This document shows positions 2,572 to 21,675 of a stretch of DNA of 64,000 nucleotides, piece by piece. The stretch lies in the sequence record MT446411.1; one strand, 5' to 3'. The notes under the pieces were generated by a model. The model had not been told where the DNA came from. It saw nothing but the letters and a program-made list of their open reading frames with translations, and did not search any database. Source of the stretch: Escherichia virus TH40. Position 1 is the stretch's first letter. Every line of letters begins with the position of its first letter. The position numbers were made by a program, and so were the translations under genes.

Positions 2572-3360
2572 ATGGCAGTAGTAGGAATTCCCGGTTGGAT
2601 TGGAACATCAGCAGTGGCTGAAACAGGTCAACGTTGGATGACAGCAGCTTCTAGAGAATTGCGTCTTGGTAACCCATCTTGGATGTCGCAATTTGCTGGT
2701 CGGTCCCGTGAGATTATTCACACCCTTGGCGCAGACCACAACTTTAACGGGCAATGGTTTAGAGACCGTTGTTTTGAAGCCGGTGCCGCACCTATTGTGT
2801 TTAATATCACCGGTGATTTAGTATCTTATACTAAAGATGTTCCATTGTTCTTTATGTACGGTGATACCCCTAATGAATACGTTACTTTGAATATTCACGG
2901 CGGGGTCCATATGTGGGGACGTGGTGGTAACGGTGGGACCCGTGTTTGGATAGCAGGTACAAATGGTGGTGATGTAATTCAAAACGACATTGGAGGCCGA
3001 CTCCGTATCTGGAACTATGGCGTTATAGCTTCAGGTGGTGGCGGCGGCGCCGGATGTGCTTCAAATAACTCTTGGCTTGAAGCAGGTACAGCCGGTGGCG
3101 GCGGTGGTAGACCATATGGATTAGGTGGTACTAATGGCGCCGTAATGCCTGGCGGCAACGCTAGTTATACCGGACCAGGTGGCGGTGGTAGCTTTGGCGG
3201 ACAGTGGGGTGGTGGTAATGGTGGCGACGCAGGCGGGGCTGGTGGCGGCGCTTACGGTCGAAACGTTACATACGGCTCGCAAGGCGGAGCCGGGCGCGCG
3301 GTATTCGGAAGTTCTCCTTCATGGGGCGCGACAGGCACTATCTACGGCTCATGGTTATAG
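2572..3360 (+). CDS. 38: gp38 receptor-binding adhesin (T2-type, glycine-rich motifs)
   Basis: 262 aa; conserved N-terminus then poly-Gly blocks ([24 protein letters not shown]...); SD ggagg; sits between 37 and t. Confidence 0.8.
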
Positions 3361-3371
3361 TACATAAGCGC

Positions 3372-3379
3372 TATAAATA
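3372..3379 (+). promoter_or_regulatory. T4-type late promoter TATAAATA for t
   Basis: Exact TATAAATA 18 nt upstream of the t ATG, followed by SD aaggag. Confidence 0.7.
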
Positions 3380-3397
3380 TCTTTAAAGGAGAAAAGT

Positions 3398-4051
3398 ATG
3401 GAACCAAAAGTAGGAATATCAATACCCGACCTACTTTTTGGACTTCTTGATAGAATTTTTAAAGATAATGCGACCGGGAAAGTTGTTTTTTCCCGGGTAC
3501 TAGTTATTGTTCTATTATTTTTAATGGCGGTAATCTGGTATAAAGGTGATGCACTTTTAGATGCGTACAGGGATGCTTCATATGCCTCATACACTGAAAT
3601 GATAAGGCAAGACCAGGATAACAGATTTAAAATTGCAGCTATCGAGCAAATCCAGATAGTCCACTCGTCAAGTGGAGCAGACTTTACAGCAATATATTCC
3701 TTTAGACCAACTAACCTTAACTACTTTGTGGATATGGTGGGATACGAGGGAATATTGCCTGATACAGTCGACGAAAAAAATTTAGGTGGGTTTCCAATAG
3801 ATAAGACTTCAGCGGAATATTTGGCGGGGGTTAATGGTAATTATTTTGAATCCAGTGTGGAATCTGTATTCTTACCAACAAAGAAAAAAAGCAGCTTCAC
3901 ATATATGTTCAGCTGCCCATTCTTTAATTTGGAAAACGTTTATGCAGGCACAGTCTCACTGTACTGGTATAAGCAAAAACCCGACCTTGGTTTTGATAGG
4001 CTTTCTTCTATGTGTGGACAAGCAGGTCGTACGCTCGGGCGTACACGTTAG
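3398..4051 (+). CDS. t: holin t
   Basis: 217 aa; LLFGLLDRIFKDNATGKV... N-terminal TMD matches T4 T holin; late promoter and SD upstream. Confidence 0.9.
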   Translation: MEPKVGISIPDLLFGLLDRIFKDNATGKVVFSRVLVIVLLFLMAVIWYKGDALLDAYRDASYASYTEMIRQDQDNRFKIAAIEQIQIVHSSSGADFTAIYSFRPTNLNYFVDMVGYEGILPDTVDEKNLGGFPIDKTSAEYLAGVNGNYFESSVESVFLPTKKKSSFTYMFSCPFFNLENVYAGTVSLYWYKQKPDLGFDRLSSMCGQAGRTLGRTR

Positions 4052-7247: not shown

Positions 7248-8623
7248 AGAGCCTCCAAATCATTAAGGTACTCAGTTTTAACGTCAGTTGTCTTCCAGTA
7301 CTCATGCTCAGCTTTCTTAGCCTTAGCTTCGTCCGCAAGCTTCTTAGCTTCATCAGAGGTCATATGGTAGATGTTCATTGCCACTAACTTCTCTGCATAA
7401 TCGCCATATATTTCACTCGCCTGGAGCTCCTCAATCAACTTCTTACGAGGTTTCCCCTGGATAACAACCTTACCATCAATCACTTCTTTAATAAAGAAGA
7501 CTTTCGCGCGGGCCAGTTTAAATGCCGCTTCAGTTTCTTTAATCTTACTGTCAATTCGCACTTGGACATAAGTCTTACGGACATCAACGAAATCGCGAAT
7601 CAGGTCAAGCGTGTTGGTGTATTCAGCCAGTTTGCCTTTATGATTAAGCACCGTTAAGTTCTGGGAGAGCTTCTCAATCAGACCAAAGTCTTTCATGATT
7701 TTCTCATGATTTTCTTCTTCAGTGCCATCCAGCTTGTATTCCTTACGGAATTTAATCTTAAACCCAAAACCATGCTCGCCACAGTTATCTTTCCAGGTGA
7801 TAAAACCTTTCTCTTCCAGCGGGTCCAGGATTTTACTTGTATACTTTTCCAGGTTCCATTGGACCGGGATTTCAGTAATTTCCATTTGAGTCCTGGAAGT
7901 CATTTTGTACGTGCCATGAAGCTCATACTTACCAGGCTCTTCCAGCTCAACAACTTTACCACGGAATTCTGGATATTTTACTTTCGGAGCAACCGGCTCA
8001 CGACCTTCCACGATAGCTTTAACAGCTTCCTTGACGTCCTGGAACGAATGAGGAAGGATATCAGTAGCAAAGCCAACAGCAATCCCAGAAGTGGCGTTAA
8101 GTAATACAGTAGGAATAACAGGAAGATAAAAAGCAGGAGGCTTATGTTCTTCATCAGGATGGACCGGAGCATATTCTGTATCCTTAAACAAGTTATAAAA
8201 GTTCTTTGAAACCCTTGCGAATACATAACGAGCTGATGATGCTTCTGGCACCATTCTGGAACCAAAGTTACCTTGCCCATCAAACATAGGATATTCATTT
8301 TTATATGTTGCGACCAAACCAGAAGTTGCTTCTTCCGCTGATGCTTCACCATGGTGATAACCATAATCAGCTACGCCCCCTGCGATGGATGCAACCTTAT
8401 GGAATTTATTCTTATCACCACGTGCCAGGTCTAATGCTCTCGCCATAACAAATCTGTGAACTGGTTTAAAACCATCAATCATGTTTGGGATGGCACGACC
8501 TTCCACAGTGTAGATAGCATATGACAATGCTTCCACATCAATAATGTCTTTTAGACTGCGTGGGTTAAGGGTCCCCATGGAATCACTGAACTGTTTGGAC
8601 ATCATACTTAAAACGTCAGACAT
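7244..8623 (-). CDS. 52: DNA topoisomerase II medium subunit gp52 (GyrA-like)
   Basis: 459 aa; ...AIPNMIDGFKPVHRFVMARA... Confidence 0.9.
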   Translation of the reverse strand: MSDVLSMMSKQFSDSMGTLNPRSLKDIIDVEALSYAIYTVEGRAIPNMIDGFKPVHRFVMARALDLARGDKNKFHKVASIAGGVADYGYHHGEASAEEATSGLVATYKNEYPMFDGQGNFGSRMVPEASSARYVFARVSKNFYNLFKDTEYAPVHPDEEHKPPAFYLPVIPTVLLNATSGIAVGFATDILPHSFQDVKEAVKAIVEGREPVAPKVKYPEFRGKVVELEEPGKYELHGTYKMTSRTQMEITEIPVQWNLEKYTSKILDPLEEKGFITWKDNCGEHGFGFKIKFRKEYKLDGTEEENHEKIMKDFGLIEKLSQNLTVLNHKGKLAEYTNTLDLIRDFVDVRKTYVQVRIDSKIKETEAAFKLARAKVFFIKEVIDGKVVIQGKPRKKLIEELQASEIYGDYAEKLVAMNIYHMTSDEAKKLADEAKAKKAEHEYWKTTDVKTEYLNDLEAL

Positions 8624-19331: not shown

Positions 19332-19703
19332 TTATTCCTTAAAGTGTGCTTTCAACATCTGGTAAACGGTCCAGGCTTCAGAATTATTAGAGATGGTGAT
19401 TTTAGTCAAAGGGAATTCGCTTGGCTCAGATGGAGCTGCGTCTTCGCATTCATCTTCAGTATCGTCATCTTTGTCTTCTTCAAAGAAACGGAATTCATCT
19501 TCCTTTATGAATAAGCTCACAAATTCACCAGTTGATAATTCCATTTTATACACATCACCATCTTCAATTCTGACCGGTCTAAATCCCTCGCCATTGATTA
19601 TAGTATCGGCTATATTATCATTATCTGTGCATAACAAACGGAATCTGCTTTCAGCAACATTATCTTTAAAATAATACCACTTATCAGTTTCAAATTTAGA
19701 CAT
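19332..19703 (-). CDS. hypothetical acidic protein
   Basis: Trimmed to MSKFETDKWYYF... with SD ggaaggag. Confidence 0.5.
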   Translation of the reverse strand: MSKFETDKWYYFKDNVAESRFRLLCTDNDNIADTIINGEGFRPVRIEDGDVYKMELSTGEFVSLFIKEDEFRFFEEDKDDDTEDECEDAAPSEPSEFPLTKITISNNSEAWTVYQMLKAHFKE

Positions 19704-19920
19704 TATAAATCTCCTTCCAAAAATCTGTACCATCTTCTGATTCTTCGCGGAACAGCGCATAGCTAGGTAATTCTGCGTCTTTGTCTGCATACACATAAAT
19801 GATATCAGTGGTGCAAAGAAATTCATTGATGTTTTTCTTCACAATCACTTTATCACTTTCGGCAGTGTCCCAAAACTCTTCAGCGGTCAGGGAAGTGGTT
19901 ACACAATCTTCATTAAACAT
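19696..19920 (-). CDS. hypothetical protein
   Basis: Trimmed to MFNEDCVTT...; hairpin 19936-19954 in leader. Confidence 0.45.
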   Translation of the reverse strand: MFNEDCVTTSLTAEEFWDTAESDKVIVKKNINEFLCTTDIIYVYADKDAELPSYALFREESEDGTDFWKEIYNV

Positions 19921-19965: not shown

Positions 19966-20526
19966 TTAGGCAAAATGAATATCAGCATACTCAACGATAA
20001 AGCTCTCAGGAACAACCTTAAAGGTTCCAAGGAACACGATATTATACAGTTTGACCCCTTCTTCAACCCACTGGTCTGTGATGTAACCAGACATGCTAGT
20101 GGTTTCATAAGTCGGACCATACATGCAATTGTATTCAAACGGTTTAGGTGAAACAAAAAAGACACCTTTGCCCAATTTCCATTTAAAATCAACCCCAACA
20201 TGAGACTGGTCAATGATTTCAACGTCTTGAGCAATTACGCCACGAATATCATTGCTTTCGCACACATATCCATCATGGGATTCAACTTCTTCAACCACAG
20301 GGAGGTTGGCGGCAGTAATAGCAGTTGATTCCAGGAATTTAGCACGCACATAAGCGAATTGAGTTTCAGTCTGACCATTTTTGGGAATGATACGCACCTT
20401 TACTTCATTATCAGGATGGTCAACAAAAATATCAGCACGAATACTGACAACCTCAACAAAACGTCCAGCGGCTCTTGAACGAGATTTTTTGGATACGCGA
20501 ACGATTTCGCCAGCTTCAACTTTCAT
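19966..20526 (-). CDS. hypothetical protein, paralogue of 20606-21358
   Basis: C-terminal ~35 aa (GYITDQWVEEGVKLYNIVFLGTFKVVPESFIVEY) align with the neighbour. Confidence 0.55.
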   Translation of the reverse strand: MKVEAGEIVRVSKKSRSRAAGRFVEVVSIRADIFVDHPDNEVKVRIIPKNGQTETQFAYVRAKFLESTAITAANLPVVEEVESHDGYVCESNDIRGVIAQDVEIIDQSHVGVDFKWKLGKGVFFVSPKPFEYNCMYGPTYETTSMSGYITDQWVEEGVKLYNIVFLGTFKVVPESFIVEYADIHFA

Positions 20527-20568
20527 AATTTTCTCTCTTGGTTAATAAGTTTATTCTCCAGTGGGGTC

Positions 20569-20597
20569 ATTATACTCTGACCCCAAGAGTTTGTACA
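20569..20597 (-). promoter_or_regulatory. early promoter/stem-loop cassette, copy of the ndd element
   Basis: ctccagtggggtcattatactctgaccccaagagtttgtacac. Confidence 0.55.
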
Positions 20598-20605
20598 CTT
20601 TAAAT

Positions 20606-21358
20606 TTAATTAAAAATTTCAACAACCATGGAACGTGGTACAACAGTAAATTCACCAGCATGGACAACGTTCAGGAGTTCAACATCATCTTCAATCCACT
20701 GGTCTGTTACCCAACCACAAATGGAACTGTTAAATGGGCGTTTGATTTGAACTGGTTTACACAGCAAGTCAATAGGGTCACCCAGTTCGCTAACTTCTTC
20801 CAGCAGTACAGATTCACGTGGATAAAGGATAGCTTCAAGATTGTCACCTGATTCATTGACTGCAGTAAATTCAAAGATGCTTTGGTGATTGTGGTACTTA
20901 ACTGTTTTAACGGTAAATGGAGCAAATCCAAAAATACCTTTCAGTACGCGCCAACCGGCATTCAATGCATTAGTATTATCAAAATCACCATATCCAACAA
21001 GTTGATAGGTTTTGTCAACTTTGATAGGAGTTTCTTCAACTTCTTTGAAGAGTTCAATCTCAGCTTCATAAATCATAATTTTTTCTACTTCATTAGTATC
21101 AAGGCGACGTGCATGTAGAATATATGCTTTATCAAACCAGTTACTTTTTACAAAAGTTTCAACAATAAATTCACCTTCACCTAAAGCATCAGTCAGAGTA
21201 TTATACCCAGAAACCATAGCTGCATTTTGAATAATAGGTTCAATCAGTTGATAAGTTTTGTTAATTTCAATAGTCATATTTTGTTTCTCAAGTTTTAATG
21301 GTTTAATTGGGCGAACATACATACTTACAACATCAAAGTCAATAAATTCTGGTTTCAT
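20606..21358 (-). CDS. hypothetical protein with internal duplication, paralogue of 19966-20526
   Basis: 250 aa; KTYQL... segment repeated; C-terminus GWVTDQWIEDDVELLNVVHAGEFTVVPRSMVVE. Confidence 0.55.
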   Translation of the reverse strand: MKPEFIDFDVVSMYVRPIKPLKLEKQNMTIEINKTYQLIEPIIQNAAMVSGYNTLTDALGEGEFIVETFVKSNWFDKAYILHARRLDTNEVEKIMIYEAEIELFKEVEETPIKVDKTYQLVGYGDFDNTNALNAGWRVLKGIFGFAPFTVKTVKYHNHQSIFEFTAVNESGDNLEAILYPRESVLLEEVSELGDPIDLLCKPVQIKRPFNSSICGWVTDQWIEDDVELLNVVHAGEFTVVPRSMVVEIFN

Positions 21359-21615
21359 TATGCAACCTTATTGAACATCGCCAGTTGGTTAGGTTGTACA
21401 ACCATAATTTCACGACGGCCTTTTGCGTTTGACACGTTCAAGTAGATGCCTTTGTTCATGTCTGTTTCTTTATCATATACCGCAATTTTATTGACAGTAA
21501 AGATTTTACCACGAATATTTGTAAATGCACATTCAAACGCTTCAGTCAGACCTGCTTCAGCAGCTTGAAGAGCAGACATTTCATATTGTTGGCCAATTTC
21601 AAAAGAAGTAATCAT
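21358..21615 (-). CDS. hypothetical protein
   Basis: Trimmed to MITSFEIGQQYEM... Confidence 0.5.
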   Translation of the reverse strand: MITSFEIGQQYEMSALQAAEAGLTEAFECAFTNIRGKIFTVNKIAVYDKETDMNKGIYLNVSNAKGRREIMVVQPNQLAMFNKVA

Positions 21616-21646
21616 TTTGTTATCCTCATCAGTAGTTGATGAGATG

Positions 21647-21675
21647 ATTATGTCTCTTTCCATTGGCCTTGTACA
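21647..21675 (-). promoter_or_regulatory. early promoter cassette (TGTACA-17-CATAAT) with catcagtagttgatgag leader
   Basis: Recurring family. Confidence 0.5.

What the first reader, a model, noticed from the sequence alone, without database searches (positions are those of the whole stretch)
19966..21358. Adjacent paralogous genes sharing a C-terminal domain, one with an internal duplication
Proteins 19966-20526 (186 aa) and 20606-21358 (250 aa) end in clearly homologous ~35-residue segments (GYITDQWVEEGVKLYNIVFLGTFKVVPESF / GWVTDQWIEDDVELLNVVHAGEFTVVPRSM). The larger also repeats a KTYQL... segment internally. Tandem paralogues with divergent N-terminal regions are typical of diversifying accessory genes.
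Basis: seen in the sequence. Interest (0 to 1): 0.45.

Follow-up and report, generated by a model that had tools for sequence, protein, structure and literature searches.

The report
Phage motB and motB.1 paralogue pair
The two neighbouring genes are motB and motB.1 of a T4-like phage. They are already known to share a C-terminal domain, so the finding is real but mostly ordinary, and the only unreported detail is that this phage's MotB.1 carries two copies of its N-terminal barrel domain.

Summary
Both ORFs lie on the minus strand. Their C-terminal segments match at 50% identity over 38 residues (BLASTP E=3e-11; profile comparison E=6e-16; 0 of 2000 shuffles reach the score). The internal repeat is also real: residues 30-109 against 110-193 give 29% identity, profile E=4e-10 and z=7.3.

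The window is a T4-like phage of the Gaprivervirus type. The 186-aa ORF is MotB (Pfam PF17613, 190 bits). MotB is the T4 DNA-binding nucleoid protein that acts with H-NS. The 250-aa ORF is MotB.1.

The shared C-terminal domain and the likely gene duplication were published by Patterson-West et al. (2021). The GoF/Frd.2-type "LSm-like" N-terminal barrel of MotB.1 was published by Kim et al. (2025).

I found the following details in neither paper:
- This lineage has two diverged N-terminal barrels in tandem. Each type occurs alone in other phages.
- The shared domain is acidic, nearly invariant and looks SH3-like rather than OB-like.
- A 20-residue motif travels with the MotB.1-type C-terminal domain.

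The biochemical role of the shared domain is inferred, not shown. Interest is low.

The parts
19966..20526 (-). motB coding sequence (186 aa): basic KOW/SH3-like N-terminal barrel, disordered acidic linker, C-terminal barrel.
   Evidence: Pfam PF17613 motB scores E=2.9e-56, 190 bits against a cut-off of 25. PHROG 1671 matches full length at E=5.8e-68. It is 51% identical to T4 MotB over the full length. AlphaFold2 predicts strands 8-67, a disordered stretch at 70-107 and strands 121-180.
20320..20526 (-). MotB N-terminal domain (residues 1-69), a basic SH3/KOW-like barrel and the likely DNA-binding part.
   Evidence: The domain has pI 9.86 and net charge +4. Invariant residues G6, V11, S12, S15, S17 and G21 lie in the VSxxSRSxxAG loop across 36 homologues. 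The model shows five strands with a short helical turn before the last one. The KOW assignment comes from HHpred in PMC7827196.
20224..20286 (-). 21-aa acidic insertion in the MotB linker (residues 81-101, VESHDGYVCESNDIRGVIAQD).
   Evidence: The insertion is present in the window and some relatives and absent from the 163-aa MotB of SP18-like phages (alignment). It explains the two-piece megablast hits. AlphaFold2 confidence (pLDDT) is below 50 here. It helps lower the whole-protein pI to 5.16.
19990..20103 (-). Shared C-terminal core in MotB (residues 142-179).
   Evidence: BLASTP, hhalign, and AlphaFold2 strands 139-180 with pLDDT of about 88-95.
20569..20598 (-). Early-promoter-like site for motB (GTGTACA, 17 nt, TATAAT) in the 79-nt gap between motB.1 and motB.
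   Evidence: This is the best promoter-like match in the region, 10 of 12 positions. The same element sits at the same place in T4 as GTTTACA...TATAAT. Promoter function is inferred from the consensus match and conservation and was not tested.
20606..21358 (-). motB.1-type coding sequence (250 aa): disordered leader with a conserved motif, barrel A, barrel B, and a MotB-type C-terminal barrel.
   Evidence: PHROG 2333 matches at E=3.4e-77. Pfam motB matches only residues 210-246, at E=1.1e-7. The protein is 37% identical to T4 MotB.1 over residues 112-222. Its position immediately upstream of motB is as in T4. The AlphaFold2 model has mean pLDDT 76.7.
21290..21349 (-). Conserved 20-residue leader motif EFIDFDVVSMYVRPIKPLKL (residues 4-23).
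   Evidence: A motif HMM finds it in 116 of 123 proteins with a MotB.1-type C-terminal domain and in 8 of 120 with another C-terminal type. Its position within the protein varies between phages. It is predicted to be disordered.
21032..21271 (-). Barrel A (residues 30-109), first copy of the internal repeat.
   Evidence: It is 54-64% identical to the single N-terminal domain of the roughly 180-aa MotB.1 proteins. The model gives the order strand, helix, three strands, short helix, strand. hhalign against barrel B gives probability 96.7%.
20780..21031 (-). Barrel B (residues 110-193), second copy of the internal repeat.
   Evidence: It is 49% identical to the single N-terminal domain of P0110 and weakly similar to the T4/RB55 N-terminal domain. 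hhalign against the GoF N-terminal domain gives probability 85% and E=5.8e-6 over 70 columns. Its predicted topology is the same as barrel A.
20609..20779 (-). MotB.1 C-terminal domain (residues 194-250). The core shared with MotB is residues 210-247 (window 20618-20731).
   Evidence: It is nearly invariant across 27 homologues, with the sequence DPxDLL...GWVTDQWIEDGVELLNVVHAG. It has pI 4.35 and net charge -5. The model shows five strands between 202 and 247 with a helical turn before the last.
21358..21615 (-). Upstream 85-aa ORF (listed as 101 aa from 21663). Context only; it is not shown to be related to the pair.
   Evidence: Its stop overlaps the motB.1 start by one base (TAATG). A GAGGA ribosome-binding site precedes Met17. 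Homologues are 85 aa long. No profile similarity to A, B, GoF or MotB domains was found.

Best explanation
These are motB and motB.1, two early, non-essential genes of a T4-like (Gaprivervirus-type) phage. They lie between cef and dexA, as in T4.

Both proteins are chains of small beta-barrels. They share one C-terminal barrel of about 55-80 residues, with the core G[WY][VI]TDQW[VI]E..V.L.N.V..G.F.VVP.S. This barrel descends from a single ancestor through gene duplication. Different N-terminal modules were then joined to it:
- MotB carries a basic KOW/SH3-like barrel. In T4, MotB binds DNA tightly and non-specifically, co-purifies with H-NS and StpA, and doubles the burst size.
- MotB.1 carries acidic barrels of the GoF/Frd.2 family, called LSm-like in the literature. 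In this lineage there are two of them in tandem, A and B, which are only 29% identical. Each type occurs alone in other phages. The duplication is therefore old, and the one-barrel and two-barrel forms differ by loss or by recombination of whole modules.

Inferred mechanism. The shared C-terminal barrel is acidic and nearly invariant, while everything N-terminal to it is swapped. I therefore infer that it is not the DNA-binding part. I propose that it is a constant docking or self-association module. In MotB.1-type proteins a conserved 20-residue motif accompanies it. On this view the N-terminal barrels supply the variable activity: DNA binding in MotB, and an unknown RNA or protein ligand in MotB.1.

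Status of each step:
- Shown here: gene identity, homology of the C-terminal domains, the internal repeat, and the modular architectures.
- Taken from the literature: DNA binding and the link to H-NS.
- Inferred: which domain does what.
For: Identity:
- Pfam and PHROG matches.
- About 96% nucleotide identity to phages MN01 and vB_EcoM_RZ, where the two genes are annotated as MotB-like.
- The same gene order as T4.

Shared domain.

Internal repeat.

Published precedent:
- PMC7827196 reports that MotB and MotB.1 share a C-terminal domain, are adjacent and probably arose by duplication.
[quoted passage not shown] My hhalign result for barrel B against the GoF N-terminal domain agrees (probability 85%).

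Modularity. The following forms occur:
- leader + A + C-terminal domain
- leader + B + C-terminal domain
- B-like barrel + C-terminal domain
- an extra N-terminal domain + leader + A + C-terminal domain
- KOW barrel + leader + C-terminal domain

C-terminal constancy: identity to the window protein is 72-77% for the C-terminal domain in eight of the nine proteins compared (67% in the KOW-type P0251). It is 54-64% for barrel A among the proteins that carry an A-type barrel, and 25-49% for barrel B among those with a B-type barrel.

Charge:
- The MotB N-terminal domain has pI 9.86.
- The MotB.1 C-terminal domain has pI 4.35.
- Whole MotB.1 has pI 4.64 and net charge -17.

Against: - No experiment assigns a function to either domain.
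- PMC7827196 proposed from HHpred that the C-terminal domain is an OB-fold nucleic-acid-binding domain and noted that either domain could bind DNA.
- Acidic overall charge does not rule out a local basic binding surface.
- T4 MotB.1 showed no clear phenotype. Deleting it left burst size and latent period unchanged, and it had no strong effect in the RNA reporter assay (PMC12152347).
- The direction of evolution, whether the tandem form is ancestral or assembled later, is not resolved.
Confidence: 0.9

Rival explanations
1. The shared C-terminal domain is itself the nucleic-acid-binding module, an OB-fold as proposed in 2021. MotB.1 would then be a second DNA- or RNA-binding protein whose barrels add further nucleic-acid contacts.
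Confidence: 0.25
2. The internal repeat is a recent in-place tandem duplication specific to this phage lineage.
For: The two copies are directly adjacent with an 82-codon period and share a 33-nt DNA stretch at 79% identity at their starts. The two-barrel form has a narrow distribution: about 33 of 736 phage records match at 80% identity or more.
Against: A and B are only 29% identical to each other. A is 54-64% identical to the single domain of A-only proteins, and B is 49% identical to the single domain of P0110. Each copy is therefore closer to a domain in another phage than to its neighbour, so the duplication predates these lineages.
Confidence: 0.1
3. The similarity is a chance or convergent short motif and does not reflect common ancestry.
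For: Only about 38 residues align. The same core profile also picks up short SGYATEQWVEDKGY repeats in long tail-fibre-like proteins.
Against: The statistics are strong: E=3e-11, E=6e-16 and 0 of 2000 shuffles. The Pfam motB model passes its curated cut-off on the 250-aa protein (32.3 bits against 25). Both models show the same five-strand topology. The genes are adjacent in many phages.
Confidence: 0.01

Closest known systems
T4 MotB (gene motB, Pfam PF17613; Patterson-West et al. 2018 and 2021, PMC6070864 and PMC7827196)
   Same: The 186-aa protein is its orthologue. It is 51% identical over the full length and has the same genomic position, the same two-barrel layout, the same invariant basic VSxxSRSxxAG loop and a conserved early-promoter-like site upstream.
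   Different: It has a 21-aa acidic insertion in the linker. The whole protein is acidic, with pI 5.16 against 9.23 for T4 MotB (PMC6070864). DNA binding and the H-NS effects were not tested for this orthologue.
T4 MotB.1 (P39415) and its family (PHROG 2333; categories 2-4 of PMC7827196; LSm-like family of PMC12152347)
   Same: It has the same C-terminal domain, the same position immediately upstream of motB and the same type of N-terminal barrel.
   Different: There are two N-terminal barrels instead of one, plus an N-terminal leader motif that T4 lacks. T4's own barrel is only weakly similar to barrel B (21 of 83 identical). The T4 reference protein is also truncated by a frameshift.
T4 GoF and Frd.2 N-terminal domains
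   Same: They are homologous to barrel B at the profile level (probability 85%, E=5.8e-6). A goF-like gene lies two genes downstream of motB in the window, beyond cef, at 19332-19703.
   Different: GoF and Frd.2 have other C-terminal regions and no MotB-type domain. Only the gain-of-function mutant GoF(D25Y) has a demonstrated effect on RNA stability (PMC12152347).
Tandem Tudor, KOW and other SH3-like small-barrel proteins (53BP1 tandem Tudor, Spt5 KOW repeats, EF-P domain I)
   Different: There is no sequence relationship (7-18% identity) and no evidence of shared ligands. This is a resemblance of fold only.

Membership tests
MotB (Pfam PF17613), for the 186-aa protein | Full-length match above the curated Pfam cut-off. 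| tested here: met
   190.2 bits against a cut-off of 25, E=2.9e-56. PHROG 1671 covers residues 1-186.
MotB (Pfam PF17613), for the 186-aa protein | Position between cef and motB.1/dexA in a Tevenvirinae genome. | tested here: met
   The gene order 39, 39.1, 39.2, goF, cef, motB, motB.1, (ORF), dexA, dda is the same as in T4.
MotB (Pfam PF17613), for the 186-aa protein | Strongly basic protein (T4 MotB pI 9.23), the property used to rationalise its DNA binding. | tested here: not met
   The whole protein has pI 5.16 and net charge -7. Only the N-terminal domain is basic, with pI 9.86. This is a property of T4 MotB rather than a criterion for the family.
MotB (Pfam PF17613), for the 186-aa protein | Tight non-specific DNA binding, co-purification with H-NS/StpA, and a burst-size effect. 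| not testable with these tools
   Known only for T4 MotB (PMC6070864, PMC7827196).
MotB.1 family, for the 250-aa protein | A MotB-type C-terminal domain of the MotB.1 subtype (DPxDLL...GWVTDQWIEDGVELLNVVHAG). | tested here: met
   It is 72-77% identical to the C-terminal domain of other MotB.1 proteins.
MotB.1 family, for the 250-aa protein | An N-terminal beta-barrel homologous to those of GoF and Frd.2. | tested here: met
   Barrel B against the GoF N-terminal domain gives probability 85% and E=5.8e-6. Barrel A against barrel B gives probability 96.7%. PHROG 622 and 3710 give marginal hits to both the 250-aa protein and the GoF-like protein. Frd.2 was not tested directly.
MotB.1 family, for the 250-aa protein | A single N-terminal domain followed by the C-terminal domain, as in T4. 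| tested here: not met
   There are two barrels in tandem plus a leader. This makes it an architectural variant within the family.
Sm/LSm (Hfq-like) proteins | The Sm fold (an N-terminal helix and five bent strands) that assembles into hexameric or heptameric rings and binds RNA. | tested here: inconclusive
OB-fold cold-shock-type domain (proposed for the MotB C-terminal domain) | A five-strand barrel with a helix between strands 3 and 4, and structural neighbours among OB proteins. | tested here: inconclusive

The most novel reading that the evidence does not exclude
The MotB-type C-terminal barrel, together with the 20-residue [IV]xDxD[VI]xSMY...P motif that accompanies it in MotB.1-type proteins, is a conserved docking device. 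It tethers interchangeable small-barrel effectors to one common target or to each other. The effectors are a basic KOW barrel in MotB and one or two acidic GoF-type barrels in MotB.1. MotB and MotB.1 would then act as a pair in nucleoid or RNA takeover. The tandem barrels of this lineage would form an intramolecular pseudo-dimer with a new ligand surface.
Probability: 0.15. Interest if true: 0.5.

Novelty: new member of a known kind. Interest (0 to 1): 0.2.

Why it matters
The finding matters little by itself. The MotB/MotB.1 paralogy and the GoF-type barrel are already in the literature, and RefSeq already labels both genes as MotB-like.

Three points have modest value:
- MotB.1 is a modular protein. 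Its N-terminal barrels are gained, lost and duplicated around an almost invariant acidic C-terminal barrel. This argues that the shared barrel is an interaction module and not the DNA-binding part, and that the "transcriptional regulator" label on MotB.1 is unfounded.
- A conserved linear motif that travels with the MotB.1-type C-terminal domain gives a concrete handle for finding a binding partner.
- The T4 reference MotB.1, which served as the reference for the published plasmid constructs, appears truncated by one extra base. This may bear on the published negative results.

Tried and rejected
1. I suspected that the upstream 85/101-aa ORF (21358-21663) was a further copy of the same barrel. 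I suspected the same of the extra N-terminal domain found in 247-251-aa MotB.1 proteins of other phages. hhalign found no similarity to A, B, GoF or the MotB domains (probability 1.65% or lower), so I dropped the idea.

2. I suspected that the MotB linker insertion (DGYVCESNDIRGV) was a copy of the MotB.1 leader motif. The motif HMM does not detect it there, so I rejected this.

3. The PDB sequence search found no solved relative of either protein.

4. The exhaustive search with the shared-core profile found only 41 representatives among 1.84 billion proteins. About 30 of them are small MotB or MotB.1-like proteins. The rest are long tail-fibre-like proteins with short SGYATEQWVEDKGY repeats, which I judged to be motif-level noise. 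The domain therefore does not appear outside this small protein family. The origin of the new representatives was not examined.

5. The search for related loci with MotB as a single query returned only 9 close loci. That was enough for synteny but not for a broad survey.

6. A Pfam hit of the 101-aa ORF to DUF4299 (E=0.056) lies below the cut-off and was ignored.

7. I could not find the 2021 NAR paper on MotB and DNA compaction in the searchable library. I found it only as a citation in other papers.

Full report
**What the sequence shows.** The two ORFs exist as described, both on the minus strand: 19966-20526 (186 aa) and 20606-21358 (250 aa). Their C-terminal segments align at 19 of 38 identities, with BLASTP E=3e-11. 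A local alignment of the full proteins scores 112, against 32.5 +/- 4.9 for 2000 shuffles (z=16, none reach it). Profiles built from each family's C-terminal region match with probability 98.6% and E=5.9e-16 over 38 columns. The N-terminal parts show no similarity (z=1.2).

The internal repeat is also real. Residues 30-109 against 112-193 give 29% identity over 82 residues, E=2e-4. Shuffling gives z=7.3, with 2 of 2000 shuffles reaching the score. hhalign gives probability 96.7% and E=3.8e-10 over 80 columns. Traces remain in the DNA: a 48-nt repeat at 75% identity for the C-terminal core, and a 33-nt repeat at 79% identity spaced 82 codons apart at the start of each internal copy.

**What the genes are.** The window is a T4-like phage. 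This stretch is about 96% identical to Escherichia phages MN01 and vB_EcoM_RZ, the latter a Gaprivervirus. The gene order matches T4: topoisomerase gene 39, 39.1, 39.2, goF-like, cef, motB, motB.1, a small ORF, dexA, dda.

The 186-aa protein is MotB. It matches Pfam PF17613 at 190 bits against a cut-off of 25 and is 51% identical to T4 MotB over its full length. The 250-aa protein is a MotB.1. It matches PHROG 2333 at E=3.4e-77, and the Pfam motB model matches only residues 210-246. It is 37% identical to T4 MotB.1 over residues 112-222. RefSeq already annotates both genes of the near-identical phage as "MotB-like transcriptional regulator".

**What is already published.** Patterson-West et al. 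2021 (PMC7827196) report three things. MotB and MotB.1 share a conserved C-terminal domain and have different N-terminal domains. motB.1 lies immediately upstream of motB. One gene probably arose by duplication of the other. They sorted homologues into four categories by N-terminal type.

Kim et al. [quoted passage not shown] They also report that deleting motB.1 has no effect on burst size or latent period. For T4 MotB, the literature shows tight non-specific DNA binding, co-purification with H-NS and StpA, toxicity when expressed in E. coli, and a two-fold effect on burst size (PMC6070864; PMC7827196).

Only these two papers in the searchable library mention MotB.1.

**Anatomy from structure prediction.** The AlphaFold2 model of the 250-aa protein used 27 sequences and has mean pLDDT 76.7. 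It shows:
- a disordered leader at residues 1-27;
- two domains with the same order of elements (strand, helix, three strands, short helix, strand) at residues 35-107 and 117-189;
- a five-strand C-terminal domain at residues 202-247, with a helical turn before the last strand.

The MotB model used 36 sequences and has mean pLDDT 71.5. It shows:
- a five-strand N-terminal barrel at residues 8-67;
- a disordered linker at residues 70-107;
- a five-strand C-terminal domain at residues 121-180, with a longer first hairpin and the same turn before the last strand.

The whole C-terminal domain therefore corresponds between the two proteins, not only the 38-residue core. MotB has an insertion of about 11 residues in the first hairpin.

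**Modularity of MotB.1.** Comparing homologues shows that the region N-terminal to the constant domain is assembled from modules:

| Architecture | Where found | Length |
|---|---|---|
| leader + A + B + C-terminal domain | the window and its close relatives | 250-252 aa |
| leader + A + C-terminal domain | the PD112 Tequatrovirus locus and most other loci fetched | about 180 aa |
| leader + B + C-terminal domain | P0110 | 165 aa |
| B-like barrel + C-terminal domain | T4, RB55 | 143 aa |
| extra, unrelated N-terminal domain + leader + A + C-terminal domain | P0008 and similar | about 248 aa |
| B-like barrel + leader + C-terminal domain | P0249 | 164 aa |
| MotB-type KOW barrel + leader + MotB.1-type C-terminal domain | P0251, P0257, P0260, P0265 | 157-181 aa |
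| MotB-type KOW barrel + MotB.1-type C-terminal domain, no leader detected | Klebsiella phage type (P0252) | 126 aa |

About 33 of 736 phage records with a match carry the two-barrel form, taken as matches at 80% identity or more.

Window barrel A is 54-64% identical to the single domain of A-only proteins. Barrel B is 49% identical to the domain of P0110. A and B are 29% identical to each other. The duplication therefore predates these lineages, and the forms differ by loss or recombination of whole modules. Which came first is not resolved.

The C-terminal domain stays 72-77% identical to the window protein in eight of the nine proteins compared, and 67% in the KOW-type P0251.

**How it most likely works.** The charge distribution is uneven:

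| Region | pI | Net charge |
|---|---|---|
| MotB N-terminal barrel | 9.86 | +4 |
| MotB linker | 4.05 | -8 |
| MotB C-terminal domain | 5.14 | -3 |
| MotB.1 C-terminal domain | 4.35 | -5 |
| whole MotB.1 | 4.64 | -17 |

The MotB N-terminal barrel also carries an invariant SRSxxAG loop. Whole MotB in this phage has pI 5.16, against 9.23 in T4.

From this I infer that DNA binding in MotB resides in the basic N-terminal barrel. I infer that the shared acidic, nearly invariant C-terminal barrel is a protein-interaction or self-association module, and that the swapped N-terminal barrels give each paralogue its specific activity. The ligand of the MotB.1 barrels is unknown. The literature suggests RNA by analogy with LSm proteins but found no effect for T4 MotB.1. 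I put the probability of this domain assignment at about 0.35-0.4. It is an inference from composition and conservation only. The identity and evolutionary origin of the genes are secure.

**Expression context.** The motB.1 stop and the motB start are separated by 79 nt. This gap contains GTGTACA, 17 nt, TATAAT, matching the element at the same place in T4. The upstream small ORF overlaps the motB.1 start by one base (TAATG), which suggests translational coupling.

**Verdict.** The feature is the known motB/motB.1 pair. The two-barrel MotB.1, the acidic SH3-like character of the shared domain and the accompanying motif are small additions to what is known, so interest is low.

Noticed in passing
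L002 (T4 NC_000866.4) locus positions 3292-3651; the extra base is near record position 7305: The T4 reference motB.1 (119 aa, 13.8 kDa) ends GWVTDQWIGRWR*. The rest of the C-terminal domain (EDGVELLNVVHAGEYSVVPRSAVVAILN*) is intact in the next reading frame. The reference has one extra G compared with RB55. Only the two reference records (AF158101.6 and NC_000866.4) match an 81-nt probe at 100%. Eleven other T4-named genomes, plus RB55 and RB59, lack the base and so should encode the 143-aa protein, as RB55 does. Kim et al. 2025 cite NC_000866.4 coordinates for their constructs, report a 13.8 kDa protein, and do not mention a frameshift. Their plasmid-expressed MotB.1 may therefore lack half of the shared domain.
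   Followed up: partly
window 20563-20584 (minus strand): A 7-bp hairpin, GGGGTCA-GAGTATAA-TGACCCC, encloses the -10 element of the motB promoter-like site. T4 has GGGACCA...TGGTCCC, and two other loci have GGGGCCA...TGGTCCC. Two stem positions therefore change in a compensatory way, which suggests a conserved RNA or DNA structure. It has no T-run, so it is not a typical terminator.
   Followed up: partly
window 21290-21349 (minus strand; MotB.1 residues 4-23): The 20-residue motif EFIDFDVVSMYVRPIKPLKL is found in 116 of 123 proteins with a MotB.1-type C-terminal domain and in only 8 of 120 with another C-terminal type. Its position varies: before the barrels, between two N-terminal domains, or directly before the C-terminal domain, including in proteins with a MotB-like KOW barrel. 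It is predicted to be disordered. It may be a short linear interaction motif. I did not find it described in the two papers I read.
   Followed up: partly
window 21358-21663 (minus strand): The small ORF between dexA and motB.1 sits where T4 has the unrelated motB.2. It probably starts at Met17 (21615), which has a GAGGA ribosome-binding site, giving 85 aa. It has its own promoter-like site, GTGTACA, 17 nt, CATAAT, at 21675-21647. Only 6 clusters, all at least 89% identical, exist among 5.8 billion proteins, and it matches no Pfam family.
   Followed up: partly
window 20224-20286 (minus strand; MotB residues 81-101): A 21-aa acidic insertion in the MotB linker is present or absent among otherwise very similar phages. 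In other phages it also occurs next to a different MotB N-terminal subtype, which suggests mosaic exchange. With this insertion the whole protein is acidic (pI 5.16), unlike T4 MotB (pI 9.23).
   Followed up: partly
window 19332-19826 (minus strand): The 164-aa ORF listed mechanically overlaps cef. The goF-like protein most likely starts at Met42 (19703), giving 123 aa. That matches PHROG 622 end to end and the 1532-1906 annotation in the near-identical phage vB_EcoM_RZ.
   Followed up: partly
P0262, P0274, P0279: Long tail-fibre-like proteins with many SGYATEQWVEDKGYLT repeats score against the shared-core profile in short stretches. I judged this to be a chance resemblance at motif level and not homology.
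   Followed up: no
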